Source: a virus (lineage: Duplodnaviria > Heunggongvirae > Uroviricota > Caudoviricetes). From it: DNA of 9,456 bases. The stretch lies in the IMG/VR virus record IMGVR_UViG_2534681624_000015; one strand, written 5' to 3'. The translations under genes and the position numbers were made by a program. The notes under the pieces are model-generated. The model did not search any database. It saw only the letters and a list, made by a program, of their open reading frames with translations, and had not been told where the DNA came from. This document shows, piece by piece, positions 1-9,456 of the stretch (its first letter is position 1; each line of letters begins with the position of its first letter).

Positions 1-525
1 TTATACAGCTTTTTTTACATCGTCTTCTCTTGCCGGGAGGTTGTGTTCCTTATTTTCATACTGAGATAAAATCTCTCTCGCTTTTTCCGGCGGTAATGCT
101 TGAAGTGTCTGTAGGGTTCTTTGTTGTTCTACAGTAACCCCCAATGCTTCTAACGCTTTATCTTTGCTAACAATTGTCGGCATAAGACCTTTAATTCCTG
201 CCACACGAATGATCTCAATAGCCGCAGCTTGCTCATCAGGCGTTAAGAAACTCATTGCATAAACTAGCCGCTCATCAACTGTATGATGGCTTGGTACATG
301 TACTGGAGGGGTATCAGAAAATGATGCTCCCTTAATAGCCCTTTGGGTTTCTTCTGGTAAGCTGTTGATGTGATATTCATAAGCCACACCTTTTCCACCA
401 TGACGTTGACGTTTTACCCAATCTTCTGCCACAGCCTTTCTGGTAATGTTAGTCGCCAACTTTGGCACACCAGGCATCCCCTCCAGCTCTTTCGCATTAA
501 ACCATTCTTTGATTTCAAAAGACAT
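1..525 (-). CDS. c: Mu/D108-family immunity repressor (Repc), 174 aa
   Basis: Complete minus-strand ORF with stop at 1-3 and ATG at 523-525. C-terminus ...DDVKKAV resembles the Mu repressor C-terminal tail. N-terminal ~60 aa are paralogous to the N-terminus of the downstream transposase ([19 protein letters not shown]...WV.RQ...KGV), the known repressor/transposase DNA-binding domain relationship. Divergent from ner-A-B as in Mu. The 174-aa size fits a D108-type repressor (recalled, not searched). Confidence 0.85.
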   Translation of the reverse strand: MSFEIKEWFNAKELEGMPGVPKLATNITRKAVAEDWVKRQRHGGKGVAYEYHINSLPEETQRAIKGASFSDTPPVHVPSHHTVDERLVYAMSFLTPDEQAAAIEIIRVAGIKGLMPTIVSKDKALEALGVTVEQQRTLQTLQALPPEKAREILSQYENKEHNLPAREDDVKKAV

Positions 526-619
526 TGTTTAAAATCCCAATGATTTCATTAAAGTTGAAAAAATCACTTTAAATTTCAAATAATTAATCAAGATGCTGTA
601 AAATCTTTTCAAATCATCA

Positions 620-648
620 TTGATTCCAAAAAGATTTCACTGTACATT
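620..648 (+). promoter_or_regulatory. Candidate early promoter Pe (-35 TTGATT 620-625, 17-bp spacer, -10 TACATT 643-648)
   Basis: Sigma70-like hexamers with 17-bp spacing reading toward ner; the predicted start (~655) sits just before the Ner operator palindrome. Pattern match by eye only. Confidence 0.4.
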
Positions 649-658
649 GCTCGATATG

Positions 659-688
659 CCGTGAGCTACTTTGCAGAGTAGCTCACGG
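659..688. promoter_or_regulatory. Ner operator: perfect inverted repeat CCGTGAGCTAC(T)-spacer-(A)GTAGCTCACGG
   Basis: Directly seen: 11-bp arms at 659-669 and 678-688 are exact reverse complements with an 8-bp spacer (12-bp arms with 6-bp spacer if the flanking T/A pair is included). It lies about 25 bp upstream of the ner start. It matches my recollection of the D108 Ner binding site (two 11-bp inverted repeats separated by 8 bp). Confidence 0.6.
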
Positions 689-712
689 GTGAATCTGAAA
701 GGATTACATGAA

Positions 713-934
713 ATGCATATGAATAAAAGAGCTAACCGCCAAGACTGGCATCGGGCTGACATCGTTGCTGAGTTACGAAAACGCAATATGTCACTGGCCG
801 AATTGGGAAGATCGAATCATCTTTCGTCTTCAACATTAAAAAATGCTTTAGATAAGAGATACCCAAAAGCGGAAAAAATCATTGCAGATGCATTGGGAAT
901 GACACCGCAGGATATCTGGCCATCTCGATACTAG
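713..934 (+). CDS. ner: Ner, small DNA-binding negative regulator of early/repressor transcription (73 aa)
   Basis: ORF frame 671..934. I prefer ATG at 713 (RBS AAAGGA at 698-703, 9-nt spacing; second ATG at 719) over the TTG at 671, which lies inside the operator palindrome. Product [33 protein letters not shown]...IWPSRY shows the Ner-family pattern (DWHRAD..., ...IWPSRY C-terminus). Sits immediately upstream of A as in Mu/D108. Confidence 0.85.
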
Positions 935-941
935 GTGCGCT

Positions 942-2930
942 ATGAAAGAGTGGTATACAGCGAAGGAATTGCTTGGTTTTGCTGGTTTGCCAAAGCAAGC
1001 AACTAACATTACACGTAAGGCACAAAGAGAAGGCTGGGTGTTTAGGCAAGTTACAGGTACTAAAGGTGTATCATTTGAATTCAATATCAAATCATTTCCT
1101 GTTGCATTACGTGCTGAAATTTTATTGCAACAAGGAGGTATTGAAACAAGCCAGGGCCGTTTTGAAATCGCCCGCCCCACGCTGGAAGCCCATGATTATG
1201 ATCGTGAGGCACTGTGGAGCAAATGGGATAATGCCAGCGATTCCCAGCGCAGACTTGCTGAAAAATGGTTGCCTGCGGTTCAGGCTGCAGACGAAATGCT
1301 GAACCAGGGGATTTCAACGAAAACGGCATTTGCGACCGTTGCAGGACATTACCAGGTCAGCGCATCCACTTTGCGAGACAAATATTACCAGGTACAGAAG
1401 TTTGCGAAGCCTGACTGGGCGGCTGCGCTTGTTGATGGACGTGGTGCATCCCGTCGCAACGTTCACAAAAGTGAATTTGACGAGGATGCCTGGCAGTTTC
1501 TGATTGCAGATTATCTGCGACCAGAAAAACCCGCCTTCCGCAAATGTTATGAGCGTCTGGAACTGGCAGCCCGCGAGCATGGCTGGAGTATTCCCTCCCG
1601 TGCCACGGCCTTTCGCCGGATTCAGCAACTGGACGAGGCAATGGTTGTTGCCTGCCGTGAAGGTGAACATGCACTGATGCATCTGATACCGGCACAACAG
1701 CGAACTGTGGAACACCTGGACGCCATGCAGTGGATCAACGGCGACGGTTATCTGCATAACGTCTTTGTACGCTGGTTTAACGGTGATGTGATCCGCCCGA
1801 AAACATGGTTCTGGCAGGATGTGAAAACCCGAAAAATTCTGGGCTGGCGCTGCGATGTGAGCGAGAACATTGATTCAATTCGCCTCTCGTTCATGGATGT
1901 TGTGACTCGCTACGGTATCCCGGAGGATTTTCACATCACCATTGATAACACCCGTGGTGCTGCGAATAAATGGCTGACGGGAGGCGCGCCCAATCGCTAC
2001 CGCTTTAAGGTAAAAGAGGACGATCCAAAGGGACTGTTTTTACTGATGGGCGCGAAAATGCACTGGACAAGCGTTGTTGCCGGTAAAGGCTGGGGCCAGG
2101 CAAAACCTGTTGAACGTGCTTTCGGTGTTGGTGGGCTTGAGGAATACGTTGATAAGCATCCGGCACTGGCTGGCGCATATACGGGGCCAAATCCTCAGGC
2201 AAAACCTGATAACTATGGCGACCGCGCTGTTGATGCAGAGCTGTTTCTGAAAACCCTTGCCGAAGGTGTGGCGATGTTCAATGCCAGAACAGGCCGTGAA
2301 ACAGAAATGTGCGGGGGCAAACTCTCGTTTGATGATGTTTTCGAGCGTGAATACGCCAGAACGATTGTGCGTAAGCCAACCGAAGAACAAAAACGGATGC
2401 TGTTACTGCCTGCCGAGGCGGTGAACGTTTCACGCAAAGGCGAGTTTACGCTTAAAGTTGGCGGCTCCCTTAAAGGCGCGAAAAACGTTTATTACAACAT
2501 GGCATTAATGAATGCCGGCGTGAAAAAAGTTGTGGTCAGGTTTGATCCGCAGCAGCTACACAGCACGGTTTATTGTTACACCCTGGACGGTCGGTTTATC
2601 TGTGAAGCGGAATGTCTGGCACCTGTTGCGTTTAATGATGCTGCGGCAGGCCGTGAATATCGCCGCCGCCAGAAACAACTGAAATCTGCGACGAAAGCAG
2701 CGATTAAGGCACAGAAACAAATGGATGCACTGGAAGTGGCAGAGCTGCTGCCGCAGATAGCCGAACCTGAAGCACCAGAATCACGAATTGTCGGCATTTT
2801 CCGGCCTTCCGGTAATACGGAACGGGTGAAGAATCAGGAGCGTGATGATGAATACGAAACTGAGCGTGATGAATATCTGAATCATTCGCTGGATATTCTG
2901 GAACAGAACAGACGTAAAAAAGCCATTTAA
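942..2930 (+). CDS. A: Mu-type DDE transposase MuA (662 aa)
   Basis: Long ORF starting 7 bp after the ner stop. Catalytic DDE triad at D268 (WINGDGY), D335 (HITIDNT) and E391 (KPVERAF), matching Mu D269/D336/E392 with a one-residue offset. C-terminus ...[10 protein letters not shown] is the MuA tail recognised by ClpX. The N-terminal domain is paralogous to the repressor N-terminus. Confidence 0.95.
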
Positions 2931-2968
2931 TTAACGTTTTAACAAAATTTAATTACGAGGTTATTCAG

Positions 2969-3907
2969 ATGAATATTTCCGATATTCGCGCAGGACTGCG
3001 CACGCTTGTAGAAAATGAAGAAACCACCTTTAAACAAATTGCTCTTGAGAGCGGACTTTCTACCGGAACTATCAGTAGTTTTATCAATGATAAGTACAAC
3101 GGGGATAACGAGCGTGTTTCACAAATGCTGCAACGCTGGCTGGAAAAATATCATGCAGTTGCAGAACTACCTGAACCGCCCCGCTTTGTGGAAACGCAGA
3201 CGGTAAAACAAATCTGGACAAGTATGCGTTTTGCCAGCCTGACTGAAAGTATTGCTGTTGTATGTGGCAATCCTGGTGTGGGCAAAACCGAAGCGGCCCG
3301 TGAATATCGCCGCACCAATAACAATGTCTGGATGATCACCATTACGCCATCCTGTGCCAGCGTTCTGGAATGCCTGACTGAACTGGCGTTTGAGCTGGGA
3401 ATGAATGACGCACCACGCCGTAAAGGGCCACTCTCCCGTGCCCTGCGACGTCGCCTTGAAGGTACACAGGGGCTGGTTATCATCGACGAAGCTGATCATC
3501 TTGGTGCCGAAGTTCTGGAAGAACTCCGCCTGTTACAGGAATCAACCCGCACTGGCCTTGTGCTGATGGGAAATCACCGGGTTTATTCAAATATGACGGG
3601 AGGTAACAGAACGGTTGAATTTGCCCGTCTGTTTTCCCGTATTGCAAAGCGTACTGCAATTAATAAAACCAAAAAAGCCGATGTAAAAGCTATTGCGGAT
3701 GCCTGGCAGATTAACGGCGAAAAAGAACTGGAGTTATTACAGCAGATTGCGCAGAAACCAGGTGCGCTTCGCATTCTGAATCATTCACTTCGCCTTGCCG
3801 CCATGACGGCTCACGGTAAAGGTGAGCGTGTTAACGAAGATTATCTGCGTCAGGCTTTCCGTGAATTAGACCTGGACGTTGATATTTCAACGCTGCTGCG
3901 TAATTAA
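2969..3907 (+). CDS. B: MuB, AAA+ ATPase target-DNA activator of transposition (312 aa)
   Basis: 312-aa ORF directly after A with RBS ACGAGG 8 nt upstream. Walker A GNPGVGKT and Walker B LVIIDEADHL are present. Length and position match Mu B. Confidence 0.95.
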   Translation: MNISDIRAGLRTLVENEETTFKQIALESGLSTGTISSFINDKYNGDNERVSQMLQRWLEKYHAVAELPEPPRFVETQTVKQIWTSMRFASLTESIAVVCGNPGVGKTEAAREYRRTNNNVWMITITPSCASVLECLTELAFELGMNDAPRRKGPLSRALRRRLEGTQGLVIIDEADHLGAEVLEELRLLQESTRTGLVLMGNHRVYSNMTGGNRTVEFARLFSRIAKRTAINKTKKADVKAIADAWQINGEKELELLQQIAQKPGALRILNHSLRLAAMTAHGKGERVNEDYLRQAFRELDLDVDISTLLRN

Positions 3908-3922
3908 GAAGGAGAAGAAATT

Positions 3923-4150
3923 ATGATGGCCCGAAATATAAAAATGGCAACGGATGCGCAGAACTGGTTACAGGCGCGCGGGAGTCATGTAAATGAATCA
4001 TATCTCGGCGTGGCGCGTCCGATTCTTGAAATCACTTACCCACCGGTGGAACTGGTAAAAAACGCGGTCAGAATTATGGAGCATAAGTCCGGGGTGGCCC
4101 GTTCTGTATGGACGGCCCGTCTTAATGGTTGTCAGATAATCTGGAGGTAG
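3923..4150 (+). CDS. kil: Small early protein, kil-like by position and size (75 aa; 74 aa if second ATG)
   Basis: ORF immediately after B with strong RBS AAGGAG and ATGATG start. Mu kil is a ~74-aa gene in this exact position (established). Assignment is positional; sequence identity was not verified. Confidence 0.6.
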
Positions 4151-4157
4151 CATTTTA

Positions 4158-4328
4158 ATGATGGTGATAAACATTCACGATAATCTGGGAATCAGTAAGT
4201 TAATCAACCTTGATAATGTCAGTGTAATGGAAACGACTGTTGAGGGTGGTGTTGCTTTTGAATTTATGAAGTATGGGACTCCTTTGCATGTTGTCCGTGG
4301 TGCAGCGTGGTTTTCTTTAAGCAGGTAA
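4158..4328 (+). CDS. Hypothetical small protein (56 aa), not in the supplied ORF track
   Basis: ATGATG start at 4158 preceded by GGAGG (4144-4148) at 9-nt spacing, 7 nt after the kil-like stop; open to TAA at 4326-4328. Translation MMVINIHDNLGISKLINLDNVSVMETTVEGGVAFEFMKYGTPLHVVRGAAWFSLSR. Fills an otherwise uncoded 230-bp gap in a tightly packed operon. Confidence 0.45.
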   Translation: MMVINIHDNLGISKLINLDNVSVMETTVEGGVAFEFMKYGTPLHVVRGAAWFSLSR

Positions 4329-4383
4329 AAGGCGCAAAGGTAAAAGCCAGCGCAGTTATTCAGAATCAATAAGGAGAAACAAA

Positions 4384-4647
4384 ATGGCAAAGGTAATTAT
4401 TGAAATTAAAAATACAGTATCTGGAACTAAAGGACGGCATTTGCGCACCAGTATTGCGGTAGGTGGTAGTGTGGAAATGGAAGGGGATGAGGCTACACTT
4501 GCAGGTCTGGTGGCGTTATTGGTGCTTAACAAAAGCCAGAAAATAATTAATGAGTCAGCTCATGAAGCCATTGAGATTTTGAAAAACGATGGTGTCATCA
4601 CAGGTGGCAGTGTCACTGAAATGGCTGTTGAAAAAACATGTCACTAA
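4384..4647 (+). CDS. Hypothetical early protein (87 aa)
   Basis: Strong RBS AAGGAG 8 nt upstream of ATG; same strand and tight packing as the early operon. No motif recognised. Confidence 0.7.
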   Translation: MAKVIIEIKNTVSGTKGRHLRTSIAVGGSVEMEGDEATLAGLVALLVLNKSQKIINESAHEAIEILKNDGVITGGSVTEMAVEKTCH

Positions 4648-4661
4648 AAGGAACGCTGACA

Positions 4662-5081
4662 ATGAATGTCAAAATCCGAAATGAAATTCAGGCATTAATC
4701 CGAATTCAGAAACGCAATAACAACGGCGGTGAATTACGCGAGTTTATTTGCGCCCGGAAAGTTGATGATTGTGGTGAAAAGACTTACCTGATTACTTTCG
4801 ACCATTACAGCATCTGTGCGCGTTATTGCGGCGAAAGCATATCCCGTGCCATTGCATCTGGCGGTGCGTTCAACGTGGATTTATGGGAGTACGTCATGGA
4901 CCGGGAATACATCTGCGCATCAGACCAGAAAGTCCGTGAAATGTGGCAGCGTATCTGGCGCGATTACCGGTTAATGGCAAAAGGCTGGGCGCGCTGCTGT
5001 TATTCCTCGCTTGCCCTGAAAGCGGTTCAGTTATCGCTGCGGCATATTCCGGCATCACTGCGCGAGCCTCTGCTGTACTGA
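4662..5081 (+). CDS. Hypothetical early protein with Cys pairs (139 aa from ATG 4662; alternative start 4638)
   Basis: ORF frame 4638..5081. ATG at 4662 has RBS AAAGGA at 9-nt spacing; the upstream ATG at 4638 has no obvious RBS. Contains C-x6-C (CARKVDDC) and C-x3-C (CARYC) 16 residues apart, a possible small metal-binding site. Confidence 0.65.
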   Translation: MNVKIRNEIQALIRIQKRNNNGGELREFICARKVDDCGEKTYLITFDHYSICARYCGESISRAIASGGAFNVDLWEYVMDREYICASDQKVREMWQRIWRDYRLMAKGWARCCYSSLALKAVQLSLRHIPASLREPLLY

Positions 5082-5381
5082 ATGGTGACTGACATGAAGT
5101 GTAATCGTAAGCGCTGGTCACGCGAAGACCGGGAATTTATCGAAGCCAACGTCGGGAAAATGACCATTGAAGAAATGGCGGAAAAACTGAAAGTCGCCAC
5201 AACCGCCCTCCGGGCACATGCCAGAAGGCACGGAATATCATTGTGTGTATACCGAATCAGTGAACACGACAAATATTTGTGTCGTGAACTTTATAAAGAA
5301 GGGCTGGATATTCATGTCATTGCCCGAAAGATGGAATTAAGCAATCGGGCTGTATCCAGCATTGTATACAGCGGATATTAA
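5082..5381 (+). CDS. Hypothetical early protein with two HTH-like segments (99 aa)
   Basis: Starts directly after the previous stop (TGAATG). Segments KRWSREDREFIEANVGKMTIEEMAEKLKVATTALRAHARRHGIS and LYKEGLDIHVIARKMELSNRAVSSIV look like helix-turn-helix DNA-binding units (pattern recognition only). Confidence 0.65.
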   Translation: MVTDMKCNRKRWSREDREFIEANVGKMTIEEMAEKLKVATTALRAHARRHGISLCVYRISEHDKYLCRELYKEGLDIHVIARKMELSNRAVSSIVYSGY

Positions 5382-5400
5382 TTAACAGGAGCTTTAATTT

Positions 5401-5925
5401 ATGGCTAAACCAGCAAAACGCATCAAAAGTGCCGCAGCGGCTTATGTGCCACAAAACCGCGATGCGGTGATTACCGATATTAAACGCATCGGGGATTTAC
5501 AGCGCGAAGCATCACGTCTGGAAACGGAAATGAATGATGCCATCGCGGAAATTACGGAGAAATTTGCGGCCCGGATTACACCGATTAAAACCGATATTGA
5601 AACCCTTTCAAAAGGCGTTCAGGGATGGTGTGAAGCGAACCGCGACGAACTGACGAACGGCGGCAAAGTGAAGACGGCGAATCTTGTCACCGGTGATGTA
5701 TCGTGGCGGGTCCGTCCACCATCAGTAAGTATTCGTGGTATGGATGCAGTGATGGAAACGCTGGAGCGTCTTGGCCTGCAACGCTTTATTCGCACGAAGC
5801 AGGAAATCAACAAGGAAGCGATTTTACTGGAACCGAAAGCGGTCGCAGGCGTTGCCGGAATTACAGTTAAATCGGGAATTGAAGATTTTTCCATTATTCC
5901 GTTTGAACAGGAAGCCGGTATTTAA
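5401..5925 (+). CDS. gam: Gam, host-nuclease inhibitor / DNA-end-binding protein (Ku-like), 174 aa
   Basis: 174-aa ORF with RBS AGGAG at 9-nt spacing. Sequence MAKPAKRIKSAAAAYVPQNRDAVITDIKRIGDLQREASRLE... matches my memory of Mu Gam, and the length is the same as Mu Gam. Confidence 0.9.
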   Translation: MAKPAKRIKSAAAAYVPQNRDAVITDIKRIGDLQREASRLETEMNDAIAEITEKFAARITPIKTDIETLSKGVQGWCEANRDELTNGGKVKTANLVTGDVSWRVRPPSVSIRGMDAVMETLERLGLQRFIRTKQEINKEAILLEPKAVAGVAGITVKSGIEDFSIIPFEQEAGI

Positions 5926-6023
5926 TACCACCATTAATATTTAATTAATTCACATTCTTTTAATTATGGCGCGATGCGTCAGGGGATTGCTCGCGCCTGA
6001 AACAGATTACTGAGGAATAAAAC

Positions 6024-6563
6024 ATGGTTGATGCAAAAATTCTGAATGGTGTCAGCATATTATTACGGGCTTACGGGCGCCTGACCTGCGGAGTTCTGGC
6101 TGAAAAAATGAATATGCTGCCCTCGTCAATGGTGTATTTCCTGCGTGATGCGGTTGATGCCGGAGTGCTCACCGAATGCAACGGATTTTATGACGTACCG
6201 CGTCCCCGTACAGAGCCGCCTGTAAGACGAAACGCAACTGAGCAGCCTGCTGTTGATGATGCGGTGTGGTGCAACTGGCGTCGCTCATTACCCTGGGTGG
6301 AAGGTAATACCATCCCTGCGCTGGCAAAAGAGTTTGCGACAGGCGTACTGACCTGTGAGTCAGTTCACATCGTTGCAGAAGTGGATGACGAGATGTGCAA
6401 ACAGGGAATGCCCCGTTTTGTGATGGCTTATATCGATATCTGGCTGGGGCGGTTTATTTGCAGTTCAGGCGCCTGGAATATCACCGACCATGTACTGCGT
6501 TATCTCATCATTGATTTTTCATCAGCACCGGGTGTGGTGCAGGAGGCTGGTTGTGAAATTTGA
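6024..6563 (+). CDS. Hypothetical early protein, N-terminal winged-helix-like segment (179 aa)
   Basis: RBS GAGGA 7 nt upstream of ATG. N-terminal LLRAYGRLTCGVLAEKMNMLPSSMVYFLRDAVDAGVLT resembles a wHTH recognition unit. Its stop overlaps the start of the next gene. Confidence 0.7.
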   Translation: MVDAKILNGVSILLRAYGRLTCGVLAEKMNMLPSSMVYFLRDAVDAGVLTECNGFYDVPRPRTEPPVRRNATEQPAVDDAVWCNWRRSLPWVEGNTIPALAKEFATGVLTCESVHIVAEVDDEMCKQGMPRFVMAYIDIWLGRFICSSGAWNITDHVLRYLIIDFSSAPGVVQEAGCEI

Positions 6564-7248
6564 AGACTGGGGTATTGATAAAAGTTGTGGCCGGGACGTC
6601 CTGGTGTACAAAAACTGTAGCGTGATTGAAGGAGAAGATGCCTGGCAGGTTCTGGATATACTTCGTTCTGCTTTATGCAGAGCTGGCTATGTTACGCCAG
6701 CGTCAGTTAATGGCGGAACTGCCACTACCTGTATCAGAAAGCAACTTTATAGTTTTTATACAGCCTACAACCAATGGTTAAAGAATGGGGCAATGGAGAC
6801 GGGCGATGATGTATTTATCCGGGCTGCCGGATTATGTGCCAATGCTTACGATTATTTTGAATCAACCGGTGCAGACAGTGAAGCCGCATTAGAACAATTA
6901 CATGCGGACTTTATCTCAGCAGGGCTGAATGCGATATTGCCATTTAACCGGGAGAGCGAACATTACATAAACGAAAGCAAATTAGCCAGATGCCACCTTA
7001 ATTCAGCACGTGTGGCATGGGTTGAAAAACACTGTATTAGTTCTGATTCAGAAATAACGGGGAAAAAGACAGTCGGTGAAACATCGTATTCGTGGCCGGG
7101 GACATTTACCACGGTGAAACAGGAATGCCCGACCTGCGGGAATGAATCCCCTGAATATCTGAAAGAGTGCCCTCATTGTGGCGGGCAGAAATGCAACCAC
7201 TGCGATATGGGCGATGACACGGCGTGCATGAATTGTGAAGGTGAGTGA
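6553..7248 (+). CDS. Hypothetical early protein with C-terminal 8-Cys double zinc-ribbon-like motif (231 aa from GTG 6553)
   Basis: ORF frame 6490..7248. I prefer GTG at 6553 because a canonical AGGAGG (6541-6546) sits 6 nt upstream and it overlaps the upstream stop by 11 nt (translational coupling); the ATG at 6490 has no RBS and would overlap 74 nt. C-terminus CPTCG-x11-CPHCG-x4-CNHC-x7-CMNC. Confidence 0.7.
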   Translation: MKFEDWGIDKSCGRDVLVYKNCSVIEGEDAWQVLDILRSALCRAGYVTPASVNGGTATTCIRKQLYSFYTAYNQWLKNGAMETGDDVFIRAAGLCANAYDYFESTGADSEAALEQLHADFISAGLNAILPFNRESEHYINESKLARCHLNSARVAWVEKHCISSDSEITGKKTVGETSYSWPGTFTTVKQECPTCGNESPEYLKECPHCGGQKCNHCDMGDDTACMNCEGE

Positions 7249-7249
7249 T

Positions 7250-7561
7250 ATGAATAATGGTGTATTTTCAAAATCAGAAGAGCTTGCCGCCCTGCTGATT
7301 GCCGGTGGTTTGCCGAAAAAAGAAGTGCATGACTTTGTGAGTTTTGTATATGAGTCGTCTCATGAAAAAGCTATTGATGAAGTCATGGCGTACCGGTTTG
7401 GCATTATTGCTGAGTCACTGAGTCCTCACTGGATTATTGAAAATCTCCGCACTATTGCTGATGGTAACAATAAAGTGGCGGCTGTCGCCGCCCTTGATGC
7501 GCTGCAACGTATGAACAGGGAACTATTCAATCCCGAGTTTCTTTTTAAGAAACGAGGTTAA
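7250..7561 (+). CDS. Hypothetical early protein (103 aa from ATG 7250; GTG 7235 alternative)
   Basis: ATG at 7250 follows the upstream stop (TGAtATG) with GGTGA 6 nt upstream. No motif recognised. Its 3' end overlaps the 3' end of a convergent minus-strand ORF by 39 bp. Confidence 0.65.
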   Translation: MNNGVFSKSEELAALLIAGGLPKKEVHDFVSFVYESSHEKAIDEVMAYRFGIIAESLSPHWIIENLRTIADGNNKVAAVAALDALQRMNRELFNPEFLFKKRG

Positions 7562-7939
7562 CCACTGTTTGCCGACGTCTGTTACGAGCGTCATCGGGGC
7601 GTCGGCAAGGTCCTGTTTTATGCGCTCAAGAATGGGTTTTTGATGTAGTGCTTTCGCAAAATCATGACCATCTTGTGTAAGTCTGACACTGGTGCCTGAA
7701 TATGAATATCCGAGGCTTGTTGGGGTGAGACCAATGCTTTTTGCGGTGCCTGTTTCCAGATATCTGTTGCTGATAAAACCATTTTCAACCAGCAACAGAA
7801 GATGGAAAACCAGCTTCTGATGGCTGTCGCTGTGCCGCTGAGAACAATCCCAGCCGACATCTTCCAGTCGAATGAATGCGGTGTCGGCCTCCAGAAAAAC
7901 ATCAAATATTCTGGCTATCTCGTCATAATCAATTTTCAT
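7523..7939 (-). CDS. Reverse-oriented hypothetical protein (138 aa), possible small winged-helix-like phage accessory protein
   Basis: Only ORF of 60 aa or more covering 7562-7801 on either strand apart from a shorter minus-strand ORF in another frame. Minus-strand ATG at 7937-7939 preceded by AAGGA at ~7-nt spacing; non-repetitive, balanced composition. Segments KLVFHLLLLVENGFI and RLTQDGHDF and the C-terminal KKKLG recall a small phage-associated domain family of unknown function (DUF2513-like, from memory, unverified). Confidence 0.55.
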   Translation of the reverse strand: MKIDYDEIARIFDVFLEADTAFIRLEDVGWDCSQRHSDSHQKLVFHLLLLVENGFISNRYLETGTAKSIGLTPTSLGYSYSGTSVRLTQDGHDFAKALHQKPILERIKQDLADAPMTLVTDVGKQWLTSFLKKKLGIE

Positions 7940-7969
7940 ATCTCATTCCTTAATATGAGAGGTGAGCAA

Positions 7970-8521
7970 ATGAATCGCACATCCCTGATTAAATTAATCC
8001 ATGTCGCCCGTCGGGAGCTACAACTCGACGACGACACTTACCGCGCTTTTCTGATGCAGAAAACGGGCAAAACCAGTTGCCGCGAGCTGACGGTCACGCA
8101 ACTGGAACAGGTGCTCGATGCCATGAAAGAACGCGGCTTTAAGAAGCTGAATAAACATCCACGTCGCCGCTTTAAGGGGTATGCCACTCCCCGCGAGAAG
8201 GTATACAAAGTCTGGCAGCAGATGGCAGAAGACGGTTTTATTACCGATGGCGGTGATGTGGCGCTGGATAAATATGTTCAGCGCCTGACAGCGAAACGCA
8301 ACGGCGGACAGGGTGTTTCCACACTGGCGTGGTGCCACGGAGAATCGTTGCAGGTTGTGCTTGAAACCCTGAAACAGTGGCACATCCGCTGTATTCGTGA
8401 AGCCTTTTCCCGTCACGGGCTTCCATTGCCGGTCAGTCCGTCCGGGCGTGAACTGCGCGGCTATGATGCCATGACGGCGGCTTATGCCCATGCCAGAAAG
8501 ACGCGGAGGATGGCACAATGA
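7970..8521 (+). CDS. gemA: GemA, early gene-expression modulation protein (183 aa)
   Basis: ATG at 7970 with GAGGTGA 7 nt upstream gives 183 aa, the size I recall for Mu GemA. N-terminus MNRTSLIKLIHVARRELQLDDDTYRAF... The stop overlaps the mor start (ATGA), as expected for the gemA-mor pair. Confidence 0.8.
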   Translation: MNRTSLIKLIHVARRELQLDDDTYRAFLMQKTGKTSCRELTVTQLEQVLDAMKERGFKKLNKHPRRRFKGYATPREKVYKVWQQMAEDGFITDGGDVALDKYVQRLTAKRNGGQGVSTLAWCHGESLQVVLETLKQWHIRCIREAFSRHGLPLPVSPSGRELRGYDAMTAAYAHARKTRRMAQ

Positions 8522-8907
8522 CGGAAGATTTATTTGGTGATTTGCAGGATGACACCATTCTGGCACATCTTGACAATCCCGCAGAGGATACGTCACGCTT
8601 TCCGGCACTGCTGGCGGAGCTGAACGATTTACTGCGCGGGGAATTGTCCCGGCTGGGTGTTGATCCTGCCCATTCACTGGAGATTGTTGTGGCTATCTGT
8701 AAGCATCTGGGCGGCGGCCAGGTCTACATTCCACGCGGTCAGGTTCTGGACTCGCTGATTCGGGATTTGCGTATCTGGAATGATTTTAACGGTCGCAACG
8801 TCAGCGAACTGACCACCCGTTATGGTGTCACTTTCAATACGGTTTACAAGGCCATTCGCCGGATGCGACGGCTGAAATACCGCCAGTACCAGCCCTCACT
8901 TCTGTAA
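8518..8907 (+). CDS. mor: Mor, activator of the middle promoter (129 aa)
   Basis: 129-aa ORF, the known length of Mu Mor, coupled to gemA via ATGA overlap. C-terminal HTH-like segment VSELTTRYGVTFNTVYKAIRR. Last gene before a strong intrinsic terminator, as in the Mu early operon. Confidence 0.9.
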   Translation: MTEDLFGDLQDDTILAHLDNPAEDTSRFPALLAELNDLLRGELSRLGVDPAHSLEIVVAICKHLGGGQVYIPRGQVLDSLIRDLRIWNDFNGRNVSELTTRYGVTFNTVYKAIRRMRRLKYRQYQPSLL

Positions 8908-8912
8908 ACAGT

Positions 8913-8937
8913 AAAGCCGGTTAATCCGGCTTTTTTT
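8913..8937 (+). terminator. Rho-independent terminator ending the early operon
   Basis: AAAGCCGG (8913-8920), loop TTAAT, CCGGCTTT (8926-8933), running into a 7-T tract (8931-8937), 6 nt after the mor stop. Corresponds in position to the Mu early terminator. Confidence 0.8.
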
Positions 8938-8984
8938 ACGTCCTCAATATCCTGTGATGAATAACCGTACCGGGGGAAATCATC

Positions 8985-9203
8985 ATGGGTAAAGGCTGGA
9001 ATGCATCCTTTCATCTTGGCAGACGTGAGCGGCTGCATCAGGAGGTTTTGCACCGTGTCGCCGGTGGGCCACGGCCTGCGCCCCGCGACTATACCGGTCA
9101 TGATGGCACCCACGGCAGTTATTACATGAAAGGCTGGCAGTCAGTTGATATGCCGGAAATTCTTCATCATTGCCTGCTTTACAGGGAGAAACATTATGTC
9201 TGA
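8985..9203 (+). CDS. Hypothetical protein (72 aa), first ORF after the early terminator
   Basis: ATG at 8985 with GGGGGA 7 nt upstream; stop overlaps the start of the next ORF (ATGTCTGA). His/Arg-rich; no motif recognised. Confidence 0.45.
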   Translation: MGKGWNASFHLGRRERLHQEVLHRVAGGPRPAPRDYTGHDGTHGSYYMKGWQSVDMPEILHHCLLYREKHYV

Positions 9204-9456
9204 GCGTTCTGCTCGTCAGTGGCCTGATTTTTTATCGGTGGTGTTACTGGCGCTGTTATTGTGGATAAGTCTGTTTTGTGGCTGGCGCGCACTGATGTTT
9301 TGCTGTGCCTCGGTTTTCAGTGTTGCTTTAAGTGTTGCCGCTGATTGTCTGGATGCGCTGATAATGAGCTGCCGGGTGCCTGAACATTTTGCCCGGTTCG
9401 TCTGGCCTCTGACCTGGCTGGGGGGTCTGTCCGGGCTGGGATTAGCCGTGATGGCA
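9196..9456 (+). CDS. Hypothetical hydrophobic/membrane protein, 5' partial (runs off the window end)
   Basis: ATG at 9196 with AGGGAG upstream; open through the window end (87 codons, no stop). Translation MSERSARQWPDFLSVVLLALLLWISLFCGWRALMFCCASVFSVALSVAADCLD... has long hydrophobic stretches consistent with transmembrane helices. Not in the ORF track, presumably because it lacks a stop. Confidence 0.5.
   Translation, partial: MSERSARQWPDFLSVVLLALLLWISLFCGWRALMFCCASVFSVALSVAADCLDALIMSCRVPEHFARFVWPLTWLGGLSGLGLAVMA

What the first reader, a model, noticed from the sequence alone, without database searches (positions are those of the whole stretch)
3908..7969. Semi-essential early region as a block of uncharacterised small genes
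Between B and gemA there are about ten small ORFs, and only gam has a function I can name with confidence. Several carry DNA-binding-like or metal-binding-like motifs. In Mu-family phages this region is dispensable for growth and is linked to host-interaction phenotypes (kil, gam and others), so it is a plausible place for host takeover or anti-defence functions. I cannot show a coherent new system from sequence alone.
Basis: partly seen in the sequence, partly recalled or inferred. Interest (0 to 1): 0.5.

Follow-up and report, generated by a model that had tools for sequence, protein, structure and literature searches.

The report
Mu-family semi-essential early region, mosaic variant
This is the well-known "semi-essential" accessory block of a Mu-type transposable phage, here as a shuffled variant: most of its genes are still of unknown function, and it includes a backwards-facing DNA-binding gene that travels with a small partner gene.

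Summary
Window 3908-7969 lies exactly between transposition gene B and gemA and holds ten real ORFs, nine on the + strand and one on the - strand. It is the classical semi-essential (SE) early region of a Muvirus.

- **Mu orthologues in Mu order:** kil, gp7, gp8, gp9, gam, gp11 and the gp13 zinc-ribbon part are 88-100% identical to Mu at protein level.
- **Slot 6:** an out-of-frame recombination scar that leaves a 56-aa chimeric ORF.
- **Slot 12:** Mu gp12 is replaced by an unrelated phage helical domain without a Pfam family, fused in frame to gp13 to give a 231-aa protein.
- **Slots 14/15:** an SfMu-type gene 14 plus an antisense 138-aa winged-helix protein (DUF2513) replace Mu gp14/gp15.

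All these alleles already exist, unnamed, in public E. coli prophages. Nine ORFs have full-length orthologues: eight give dN/dS clearly below 1, DUF2513 too few differences to estimate. No known defence or anti-defence family is hit.

So this is a known kind of region in a new mosaic, and functions remain largely unknown. The most interesting by-product is that gene 14 and DUF2513 form a tail-to-tail cassette that also occurs outside Mu early regions. Across 79 related loci, gam and DUF3164 are strictly mutually exclusive.

The parts
3923..4150 (+). kil (Mu gp5 orthologue, 75 aa)
   Evidence: 100% identical to Mu Kil over 74 aa. phrog_2743 'Kil protein' 2.8e-43. dN/dS about 0.05. Present in 36 of 37 Escherichia-type loci.
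4158..4328 (+). Gene-6 remnant: a 56-aa chimeric ORF. The first 38 aa come from a 70-73-aa family (phrog_3375); the ORF then reads out of frame into the 3' end of Mu-type gene 6. Probable pseudogene or recombination scar.
   Evidence: phrog_3375 matches only residues 1-38 of a 73-position profile. The three-way DNA alignment shows the crossover at about 4266-4268. The window is 99.5% identical to L026 over 1-4267 and 99.3% to L074 over 4268-9456. Only 2-3 nt of microhomology lie at the joint. No full-length orthologue was found, and no complete E. coli genome holds the junction.
4384..4647 (+). gp7 orthologue (87 aa), function unknown
   Evidence: 88.5% identical to Mu gp7. phrog_10252 8.7e-55. 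dN/dS about 0.2. Present in 37 of 37 Escherichia-type loci. No Pfam hit.
4662..5081 (+). gp8 orthologue (139 aa), function unknown; conserved Cys/His motif
   Evidence: 94% identical to Mu gp8. phrog_3690 3.4e-94. Conserved FDHYSICARYCGE motif: the H and two C at 0.95 conservation, an upstream C at 0.9. No Pfam or PDB sequence match. dN/dS 0.2-0.5.
5082..5381 (+). gp9 orthologue (99 aa), predicted tandem-HTH DNA-binding protein
   Evidence: 99% identical to Mu gp9. phrog_323 'transcriptional regulator, D5-like' 6.1e-29. Several Pfam/NCBIfam HTH and sigma-70 region 4 hits, all below cut-off. Present in 60 of 79 loci, the second most widespread SE family after kil.
5401..5925 (+). gam (host-nuclease inhibitor, Ku-like DNA-end binding protein, 174 aa)
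   Evidence: 99.4% identical to Mu Gam. PF07352 Phage_Mu_Gam 9.9e-42, 142.8 bits against a cut-off of 28.3. dN/dS 0.03-0.14.
6024..6563 (+). gp11 orthologue (179 aa): weak N-terminal HTH plus Gp11_C domain, function unknown
   Evidence: 92% identical to Mu gp11. PF25754 Gp11_C 1.8e-37. HTH_10 hit at E 0.062, below cut-off. No PDB sequence match. dN/dS about 0.22.
6553..7248 (+). 231-aa three-module protein in the gp12/gp13 slots (GTG start, SD CAGGAGG at 6540-6546). Modules: an N module (aa 1-55), a helical core domain with no Pfam family (aa about 60-168), and the Mu gp13 4xCxxC zinc-ribbon part (aa 176-231) fused in frame.
7250..7561 (+). Gene 14, SfMu type ('14w', 103 aa), function unknown; its 3' end overlaps the 3' end of the antisense DUF2513 gene by 39 nt
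   Evidence: phrog_1988 8.3e-51. Not homologous to Mu gp14 by BLASTP. DNA 7077-7499 is 95% identical to SfMu. The C-terminal tail differs from SfMu gp14 after about residue 83. dN/dS about 0.24 against 45-49% identical orthologues.
7523..7939 (-). DUF2513-type winged-helix protein (138 aa), encoded antisense to the early operon; its start codon lies 30 nt from the gemA start codon
7477..7492 (-). GC-rich hairpin on the minus strand 31 nt after the DUF2513 stop codon; possible weak terminator of the antisense transcript
   Evidence: Terminator-like site in the scan. Fold -22.1 kcal/mol, z -2.55. The U tract is poor, so this is inference only.
7936..7965 (.). Imperfect palindrome (TCTCAT-8 nt-ATGAGA core) in the 30-nt spacer between the divergent DUF2513 and gemA start codons
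   Evidence: Inverted repeats I1/I2. Function not tested.

Best explanation
The block is the semi-essential (SE) accessory part of the early operon of an Escherichia/Shigella-type Muvirus.

**Transcription (inferred from Mu biology).** It is read rightwards from the early promoter, as one transcript with ner, A and B. That transcript ends at the hairpin after mor (8913-8933).

**Role.** The block encodes small proteins that act on the host, not on phage assembly.
- Kil changes cell shape and kills the host when over-expressed.
- Gam binds DNA ends and blocks RecBCD-type exonucleases.
- gp9 and gp11 are probably small DNA-binding proteins.
- gp7 and gp8 are conserved proteins of unknown activity.

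**How this copy differs from Mu.** It is a mosaic made by recombination at gene boundaries.
- It has a D108/SfMu-type immunity end.
- Gene 6 was destroyed by an illegitimate crossover.
- gp12 is replaced by an unrelated, widespread phage helical domain, which here is fused in frame to the gp13 zinc ribbon.
- Mu gp14/gp15 are replaced by a two-gene cassette: a sense gene 14 plus an antisense winged-helix gene (DUF2513).

**DUF2513 (inferred).** It faces against the strong lytic transcript. In other phages it sits beside Arc/Mnt-like repressor genes. I therefore infer that DUF2513 is made in the lysogen and shut off during lytic growth, while its partner gene 14 is made with the lytic genes.

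**Shown versus inferred.** Shown: gene identities, mosaic joints, purifying selection, the winged-helix fold and the recurrent synteny. Inferred: all transcription timing and all biochemical activities other than those of Kil and Gam. The activities of Kil and Gam come from published work on Mu.
For: **Identity and colinearity.**
- The window is 95-98% identical to Mu, D108 and SfMu over 1130-4149, 4275-6546, 7079-7259 and 7970-9456.
- The protein table is 88-100% identical to Mu for kil, gp7, gp8, gp9, gam, gp11, gp13, gemA and mor.
- Family hits: PF07352 Gam, PF25754 Gp11_C, and the PHROG Kil family.
- A terminator after mor matches the one annotated in D108.

**Coding status.** dN/dS is below 1 for every ORF where it could be estimated.

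**Mosaic joints and slot turnover.**
- Joints are shown.
- Across 37 Escherichia-type loci there are 22 gene orders. The core is kil, gp7, gp9 and gam at 97-100%, gp11 at 89% and gp8 at 86%. All variation falls in slots 6, 12-13, 14 and 15.
- The same right arm (11, 12x13 fusion, 14w, antisense DUF2513) is in IMG/VR contigs L021, L024, L028 and L074.

**Published background.** The SE region is largely uncharacterised and carries lethal functions (PMC3325207). Low-level early transcription occurs in lysogens, and gam and gem have known roles (PMC3820752). Mu kil gives spherical cells (PMC3961180).

**DUF2513.**
- Winged-helix fold.
- Relatives at 47-62% identity occupy the same antisense position next to gemA in Salmonella and E. 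coli prophages.
- 46 of 59 full-length relatives have a tail-to-tail gene-14-like partner. This includes copies inside a baseplate operon and an immI-like region without gemA.
Against: - No transcript, promoter or protein data exist for this sequence.
- The simple promoter scan finds no sigma-70-like promoter for the antisense gene, and finds fewer promoter-like sites than in shuffled sequence.
- Host-directed roles for gp7, gp8, gp9, gp11, the fusion protein and gene 14 are assumed from position only. None hits a family with a known function above threshold.
- The gene-14/DUF2513 pairing statistics come from loci fetched through Mu B or through DUF2513 itself. They are redundant and biased towards Mu-like phages.
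- The co-variation of the two proteins (r 0.92) is not clearly above that of neighbouring gemA (0.82-0.89), so linkage alone could explain it.
- Gene 14 is often present without DUF2513: 27 versus 8 of 37 loci.
Confidence: 0.85

Rival explanations
1. The gene-14/DUF2513 pair is a prophage-borne exclusion or defence module with its own antidote. In this reading the winged-helix protein is made by the lysogen and blocks incoming related phages. Gene 14, made early in the lytic cycle, neutralises it so that the resident phage can grow. Phages that carry gene 14 alone would be escapers.
For: - The pair is a conserved tail-to-tail unit in 46 of 59 cases, with a fixed 38- or 29-nt overlap in 39 of them.
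- The pair moves as a unit into unrelated operons: a baseplate operon in L141/L146 and an immI-like region with two Arc-like genes and an antirepressor in L144.
- DUF2513 is antisense to the lytic operon and gene 14 sense in the window and in the Mu-like, baseplate-operon (L141/L142/L146/L147) and L144 copies where orientation was inspected.
- The dependence is asymmetric: DUF2513 usually comes with gene 14, while gene 14 is often alone.
- Solo gene 14 copies keep the C-terminal tail that is otherwise co-encoded with DUF2513, which suggests that DUF2513 was deleted from them.
- A 40%-identical relative sits beside a Cap15 CBASS effector and a SymE toxin gene in marine contigs.
Against: - No PADLOC hit for the window protein or for 26 family members.
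- The fold is a generic winged helix with no effector domain.
- The co-variation is not above that expected from linkage.
- The sample is biased.
- There are no expression data and no promoter prediction.
- The pairing may simply reflect that one insertion event has been inherited.
Confidence: 0.15
2. DUF2513 is a local transcription regulator of gemA-mor. It would bind the palindrome between the divergent start codons and tune middle-gene activation or gem expression in lysogens.
For: - 36 of 59 relatives have gemA divergently placed, with start codons 31-72 nt apart where this was measured by tblastn.
- An imperfect palindrome lies in the 30-nt spacer.
- The protein has a winged-helix fold with PadR/MarR-like neighbours.
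- gem is reported to act even in lysogens (PMC3820752).
Against: - The pair with gene 14 persists in at least five contexts that have no gemA. Eleven more distant relatives have neither partner.
- Mu, D108 and SfMu express gemA-mor without DUF2513.
- The palindrome is short and was not tested for conservation.
Confidence: 0.2
3. The departures from Mu are assembly artefacts: a chimeric join of two co-resident Mu-like prophages. They would then not be real biology.
For: - The window equals L026 (99.5%) to the left of 4267 and L074 (99.3%) to the right. Both contigs come from one IMG genome, 2534681628.
- The exact gene-6 junction is absent from 5,426 complete E. coli genomes.
Against: - The two parents share only 2-3 nt at the joint, too little for a k-mer assembler to bridge. 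This is typical of illegitimate recombination.
- The other two replacements are seen independently in closed RefSeq chromosomes and several IMG/VR contigs.
Confidence: 0.1
4. The ten genes form one coherent new anti-defence operon.
For: They are small, co-transcribed early genes in a region known to be dispensable and toxic (PMC3325207). Turnover of the small genes is high.
Against: - The genes are gained and lost one slot at a time, not as a set.
- The core genes are strongly conserved while the variable ones are unrelated to each other.
- No known anti-defence or defence family is hit.
- Kil and Gam have separate, known activities.
Confidence: 0.03

Closest known systems
Semi-essential early region of phage Mu (NC_000929, Mup05-Mup15: kil, gp6-gp9, gam, gp11-gp15)
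   Same: Same position between B and gemA, same strand, same order. kil, gp7, gp8, gp9, gam, gp11 and gp13 are 88-100% identical at protein level.
   Different: Gene 6 is broken. gp12 is replaced by an unrelated domain fused to gp13. Mu gp14 and the antisense gp15 are replaced by SfMu-type gene 14 and antisense DUF2513. The immunity end is D108/SfMu type.
Unnamed Mu-like prophages: IMG/VR contigs L021/L024/L028/L074; E. coli MIN10 and 22KM0354 (L004, L005); E. coli JCKP02 and OZ040490 (L006, L007)
   Same: L074 is 99.3% identical over window 4268-9456 and has the same order: 7, 8, 9, gam, 11, 12x13 fusion, 14w, antisense DUF2513. L004/L005 share 14w plus DUF2513. L006/L007 share the 231-aa fusion, annotated as WP_244588664.1.
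   Different: None of them has the chimeric gene 6. No complete E. coli genome combines the fusion with DUF2513.
Shigella phage SfMu (NC_027382)
   Same: Same repressor/ner type. The same gene 14 is 95% identical over 7077-7499. Published as a Mu/D108 mosaic with differing early ORFs (PMC4406740).
   Different: SfMu has an extra DUF5420 gene between gam and gp11, separate gp12 and gp13, both gene-14 types, and gp15 in place of DUF2513.
PadR/MarR/TubR-type winged-helix DNA-binding proteins
   Different: Sequence identity is 11-21%, and no Pfam membership in these families was found. No ligand or operator is known.
Prophage 'moron' and exclusion genes with self-immunity, such as P22 sieA in the immI region and BstA with its aba element (recalled from memory, not tested here)
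   Same: The logic resembles the novel reading: a lysogen-expressed gene set against or beside lytic operons, with a linked element that spares the resident phage. One DUF2513 copy sits in an immI-like region with Arc-like genes and an antirepressor.
   Different: No sequence or fold relationship was shown. Here the partner is a protein-coding gene in convergent overlap. No exclusion phenotype is known.
Small early-operon host-takeover proteins of Pseudomonas Mu-like phages, such as Aqs1 of DMS3 and Tip of D3112 (recalled from memory)
   Same: Small accessory genes downstream of the transposition genes that act on host processes.
   Different: No homology was detected, and the hosts and targets differ.

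Membership tests
Mu-family semi-essential early region | Lies between transposition gene B and gemA/mor, on the early-operon strand | tested here: met
   B 2969-3907, gemA 7970-8521 and mor 8518-8907 are all on the + strand. The same layout is seen in Mu, D108 and SfMu.
Mu-family semi-essential early region | Contains kil directly after B, and gam | tested here: met
   kil is 100% and gam 99.4% identical to Mu. PF07352 scores above its cut-off.
Mu-family semi-essential early region | Orthologues of the Mu SE genes in Mu order | tested here: met
   kil, gp7, gp8, gp9, gam, gp11 and gp13 are colinear with Mu. Slots 6, 12 and 14/15 hold other alleles, which is also the case in D108 and SfMu.
Mu-family semi-essential early region | Dispensable for lytic growth; carries host-lethal functions | not testable with these tools
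   Known for Mu itself (PMC3325207). Testing it here needs a deletion mutant of this phage.
Mu-family semi-essential early region | Part of one early transcript that ends at the terminator after mor | tested here: inconclusive
   A hairpin with a T run at 8913-8933 matches the terminator annotated in D108. The transcript itself cannot be tested.
Gam (PF07352, Mu Gam-like host-nuclease inhibitor) | Pfam score above the gathering threshold over the whole domain | tested here: met
   142.8 bits against 28.3; profile positions 2-148 of 149.
DUF2513 (PF10711) | Pfam score above the gathering threshold | tested here: not met
   15.8 bits against 29.6 for the window protein. However, relatives at 54% identity carry precomputed PF10711, and RefSeq names the 99%-identical protein DUF2513. 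It is therefore a divergent member by transitivity.
Winged-helix DNA-binding proteins (PadR/MarR/TubR-like) | Helix-turn-helix followed by a beta-hairpin wing, superposable on solved members | tested here: met
Mu gp12 family (PF26885 Phage_Mu_Gp12) | Sequence or profile homology of the slot-12 protein to Mu gp12 | tested here: not met
   No BLASTP hit. hhalign probability 0.1%.
DnaJ-type CxxCxGxG zinc finger | Pfam PF00684 above threshold, with the CxxCxGxG spacing | tested here: not met
   17.3-19.8 bits against 32.7. Four CxxC pairs are present, but only one (CPHCGG) is followed by glycine. It is a zinc-ribbon-like motif only.
Known anti-phage defence systems (PADLOC-DB 2.0) | Any component HMM hit at E <= 0.001 | tested here: not met
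   None for the ten proteins. The best hits are mad1 at 0.0036 on gp9 and PDC-M42B at 0.0091 on gene 14, each with no passing stretch. None of the 26 DUF2513 members matched beyond one chance hit.
Type II toxin-antitoxin pair | Two small co-directional genes in one operon, one with a toxin fold | tested here: not met
   Gene 14 and DUF2513 are convergent with overlapping 3' ends. No toxin family hit.

The most novel reading that the evidence does not exclude
Gene 14 (SfMu type) and the antisense DUF2513 winged-helix gene form a mobile two-gene cassette. One partner would be made in the lysogen and the other in the lytic cycle. The DUF2513 protein would act as a prophage-encoded exclusion factor, or as a second immunity repressor. 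Gene 14 would be its lytic-phase antagonist, so phages carrying gene 14 alone would be escapers. The cassette is found in Mu early operons, in a baseplate operon and in an immI-like region. A second, separate lead: DUF3164 may be a non-homologous functional replacement of Gam, since across 79 loci one or the other is present, never both and never neither.
Probability: 0.15. Interest if true: 0.6.

Novelty: new member of a known kind. Interest (0 to 1): 0.3.

Why it matters
By itself the block adds little, because the Mu semi-essential region has been known for decades as a set of dispensable, partly toxic early genes.

The comparison does give a usable map for function hunting.
- **Fixed core:** kil, gp7, gp8, gp9, gam or DUF3164, and gp11.
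- **Swappable slots:** 6, 12-13, 14 and the antisense slot before gemA.

It also yields three concrete, cheap-to-test leads:
- A very common helical phage domain with no Pfam family and no solved relative. It occupies 'slot 12' and is here fused to the gp13 zinc ribbon.
- A convergent gene-14/DUF2513 cassette that moves between operons of unrelated phages.
- The strict either/or of Gam and DUF3164.

If either of the last two leads held up, it would assign a role to protein families that are present in thousands of enterobacterial prophages.

Tried and rejected
**Family scans**
- Pfam, NCBIfam and PADLOC scans of all ten proteins gave only Gam and Gp11_C above threshold.

**Sequence searches of the Protein Data Bank**
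- Nothing below E 0.04 for gp8, gp11, gp9, the slot-12 domain profile or the DUF2513 profile.

**Fold searches**
- BFVD gave only uncharacterised phage proteins.
- The afdb50 library was not available.

**RNA, repeats and promoters**
- The Rfam scan of the window gave no match.
- The repeat search of the region gave only short chance pairs.
- The promoter scan found no candidate for the antisense gene.

**Homology and co-evolution tests**
- Homology of the slot-12 module to Mu gp12: rejected (hhalign 0.1%).
- Homology of Gam to DUF3164: rejected at this depth (0.6%).
- A mirror-tree test for specific co-evolution of gene 14 with DUF2513 was not discriminating.

**Searches that gave little**
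- The word-index search with gene 14 found only close relatives.
- Literature searches for Mup locus tags, DUF2513, DUF3164 and Mu anti-defence gave nothing functional.

**Ideas considered and rejected**
- A toxin-antitoxin reading of the pair, because the genes are convergent.
- An assembly chimera at gene 6, because the parents share only 2-3 nt at the joint.

Full report
**What the window is.** The 9,456-base window is the left end of a Mu-family transposable phage or prophage.
- It encodes the repressor c (1-525, minus strand), ner, A (942-2930), B (2969-3907), the block in question, gemA (true start 7970), mor (8518-8907) and a terminator-like hairpin at 8913-8933.
- Megablast finds Mu, D108, SfMu, Mu_3F6 and Yersinia Mu-like phages at 95-98% identity over 50-85% of the window.
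- It also finds 97 of 5,426 complete E. coli genomes with related prophages.
- The immunity end (1-1129) is of the D108/SfMu type, not the Mu type.

**The observation.** The finding's coordinates are exactly the B-to-gemA interval. I count ten genes, listed under 'parts'.
- All ten hit PHROG families, with E from 2.5e-16 to 2e-165.
- Eight of the nine that have full-length orthologues give dN/dS clearly below 1. For DUF2513 the close orthologues are too similar to estimate a ratio; its coding status rests on 29 homologues down to 30% identity, of which 25 were aligned with it.
These are the HTH-like segments in gp9 and the N-terminus of gp11, the four CxxC pairs in the gp13 part, and a conserved Cys/His motif in gp8.

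**Comparison with Mu.**
- kil, gp7, gp8, gp9, gam, gp11 and the gp13 part are 88-100% identical to Mu and in Mu order.
- Three segments have no counterpart in Mu: 4150-4274, 6547-7076 and 7260-7969.
- The papers I could read describe the Mu SE region as 14 ORFs of largely unknown function. They report lethal functions that disappear when the region is deleted (PMC3325207), low-level early transcription in lysogens, and known roles only for gam and gem (PMC3820752).
- Mu kil expression gives spherical cells (PMC3961180, citing Waggoner 1989).
- The block is therefore a known kind of region.

**Slot map.** I fetched 11 genome loci and 80 IMG/VR loci anchored on B. I then called and clustered the ORFs between B and gemA in 79 loci.
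- Among 37 Escherichia-type loci there are 22 different gene orders.
- gp7, gp9 and gam are in all 37, kil in 36, gp11 in 33 and gp8 in 32.
- All variation falls in five places:
  - slot 6, which has three alleles or none;
  - the gam-gp11 gap, where DUF5420 is inserted as in SfMu;
  - slots 12-13;
  - slot 14, with two unrelated alleles, either or both present;
  - an antisense slot just before gemA.
- The window's order is kil, 6-remnant, 7, 8, 9, gam, 11, fusion, 14, antisense DUF2513. It equals that of four IMG/VR contigs (L021, L024, L028, L074) except at slot 6.

**Slot 6.**
- The window is 99.5% identical to contig L026 over 1-4267 and 99.3% identical to contig L074 over 4268-9456. Both contigs come from one IMG genome.
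- The crossover lies inside gene 6. It joins the first 38 codons of one allele (phrog_3375, intact as a 70-aa gene in L006) to the 3' end of the Mu-type allele in another frame. The result is a 56-aa ORF with no full-length relative.
- The parents share only 2-3 bases at the joint, and no complete E. coli genome has the joint.
- I read this as a scar of illegitimate recombination. An assembly artefact is less likely but not excluded.

**Slots 12-13.**
- A GTG at 6553, behind a CAGGAGG, opens a 231-aa reading frame that runs straight into the gp13 sequence.
- PGAP annotates the same 231-aa protein in two closed E. coli genomes, and phrog_6418 covers it end to end.
- It has three modules:
  - a small N module that also exists alone;
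  - a core of about 105 residues;
  - the gp13 zinc-ribbon-like tail.
- The core domain:
  - It is modelled with pLDDT 95-98 as an all-helical bundle.
  - It has 526 relatives at E <= 1e-3 among 1.84 billion representatives, mostly stand-alone proteins of 100-110 aa.
  - It is not related to Mu gp12 (hhalign 0.1%).
- The same domain occurs alone as the only gene between gp11 and gemA in a common E. coli Mu-like lineage (P0004, 213 contigs), and in L045, L052 and L075.
- The fused form is rare, on a handful of contigs. Free gp13 is seen on at least 1000 contigs.
- Its function is unknown. The relaxed dN/dS (0.37-0.55) fits an accessory role.

**Slots 14-15.**
- Gene 14 here is the SfMu type (phrog_1988) and is unrelated to Mu gp14.
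- Its last 39 bases overlap the 3' end of a 138-aa gene on the other strand.
- The Pfam DUF2513 hit is below threshold for this protein. However, relatives at 54% identity carry the domain and RefSeq uses the name. The protein cluster is seen on more than 1000 contigs.
- Relatives at 47-62% identity sit at the same antisense position. Their start codons lie 31-72 nt from the gemA start, in Salmonella and E. coli Mu-like prophages.
- Mu gp15 and its relatives occupy the same antisense slot in other lineages.

**A by-product: the gene-14/DUF2513 cassette.**
- In all loci held, 46 of 59 full-length DUF2513 ORFs have a gene-14-like ORF tail to tail. The overlap is 38 nt in 32 cases and 29 nt in 7.
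- 36 of these pairs also have gemA next door. The pair is kept without gemA in at least five other contexts:
  - inside a baseplate operon, between the hub/spike genes and the sheath-initiator/Baseplate_J genes (L141, L146);
  - in an immI-like region, after an antirepressor gene and two Arc-like genes (L144).
- Wherever orientation was inspected (the window, the Mu-like, baseplate-operon and L144 copies), gene 14 runs with the surrounding lytic operon and DUF2513 runs against it.
- Gene 14 alone is common: 27 versus 8 of 37 loci. Some solo copies keep the C-terminal tail that is otherwise co-encoded with DUF2513.
- A 40%-identical relative lies beside a Cap15 CBASS effector gene in marine contigs.
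- This fits a model of a lysogen-expressed DNA-binding protein with a lytic-phase partner. But it is inference:
  - no defence family is hit;
  - no promoter is predicted;
  - co-variation is no stronger than with gemA;
  - the sample is biased.

**Second by-product: gam versus DUF3164.**
- Of 79 loci, 40 have gam, 39 have DUF3164, none has both and none has neither.
- The two occupy the same slot, with the same flanking families in three lineages.
- They show no profile homology.
- The papers that mention DUF3164 give it no function.

**Verdict.**
It is unproven on anti-defence.
- The block is a new mosaic of known, unnamed alleles, not a new system.
- Interest is modest. The cassette and the gam/DUF3164 alternation are the parts worth a bench test.

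Noticed in passing
window 7250-7939; loci L099-L103, L110-L149, especially L141, L144, L146: SfMu-type gene 14 and the antisense DUF2513 gene form a conserved tail-to-tail cassette: 46 of 59 DUF2513 genes have such a partner, usually with a 38- or 29-nt 3' overlap. The cassette also occurs inside a baseplate operon and in an immI-like region with Arc-like and antirepressor genes, so it moves as a unit.
   Followed up: partly
loci L001-L098 (slot after gp9); L099 versus L100-L102: gam and DUF3164 are strictly alternative in 79 Mu-like loci (40 versus 39, never both, never neither). They sit at the same slot with the same flanking families in three lineages. hhalign shows no homology (0.6%), which suggests a non-orthologous replacement of Gam.
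   Followed up: partly
window 4140-4400 (joint at about 4266-4268): The window is L026-like to the left and L074-like to the right. These are two contigs of one IMG genome. The crossover lies inside gene 6 at 2-3 nt of microhomology and leaves an out-of-frame 56-aa ORF. The joint is absent from 5,426 complete E. coli genomes.
   Followed up: yes
window 1-1129: The repressor c, ner and the first part of A are of the D108/SfMu type (95% identity). They do not match Mu, so the immunity specificity should be that of D108/SfMu.
   Followed up: partly
window 6730-7056; loci L045, L052, L075, L107-L109: The helical core of the 231-aa protein is a very widespread stand-alone phage domain: 526 representative clusters, no Pfam family, no solved relative. 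In a common E. coli Mu-like lineage it is the only gene between gp11 and gemA. Elsewhere it is fused to DUF551 or to a dATP/dGTP pyrophosphohydrolase domain.
   Followed up: partly
window 7477-7492 (minus strand) and 7936-7965: A GC-rich hairpin lies 31 nt after the DUF2513 stop, inside gene 14 (z -2.55). A short palindrome, TCTCAT-8-ATGAGA, lies between the divergent DUF2513 and gemA start codons. These could be a terminator and an operator, but neither was tested.
   Followed up: no
locus L102 3982-4386: One Salmonella Mu-like prophage carries a second antisense gene (134 aa, no Pfam hit) between mor and gemA. This is another sign that antisense insertions are tolerated around gemA.
   Followed up: no
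loci L053-L073 (Klebsiella/Raoultella-type Mu-likes): These relatives have a much shorter SE region: kil, gp9, DUF3164, a 165-aa protein whose sequence looks MazG-like by eye (no Pfam hit), then variable genes. They lack gp7, gp8 (bar one locus) and gp11.
   Followed up: no
window 5926-6023: The 98-nt gap between gam and gp11 holds an AT-rich stretch and a GC-rich hairpin (z -1.8). This is the point where SfMu-type phages carry the extra DUF5420 gene.
   Followed up: no
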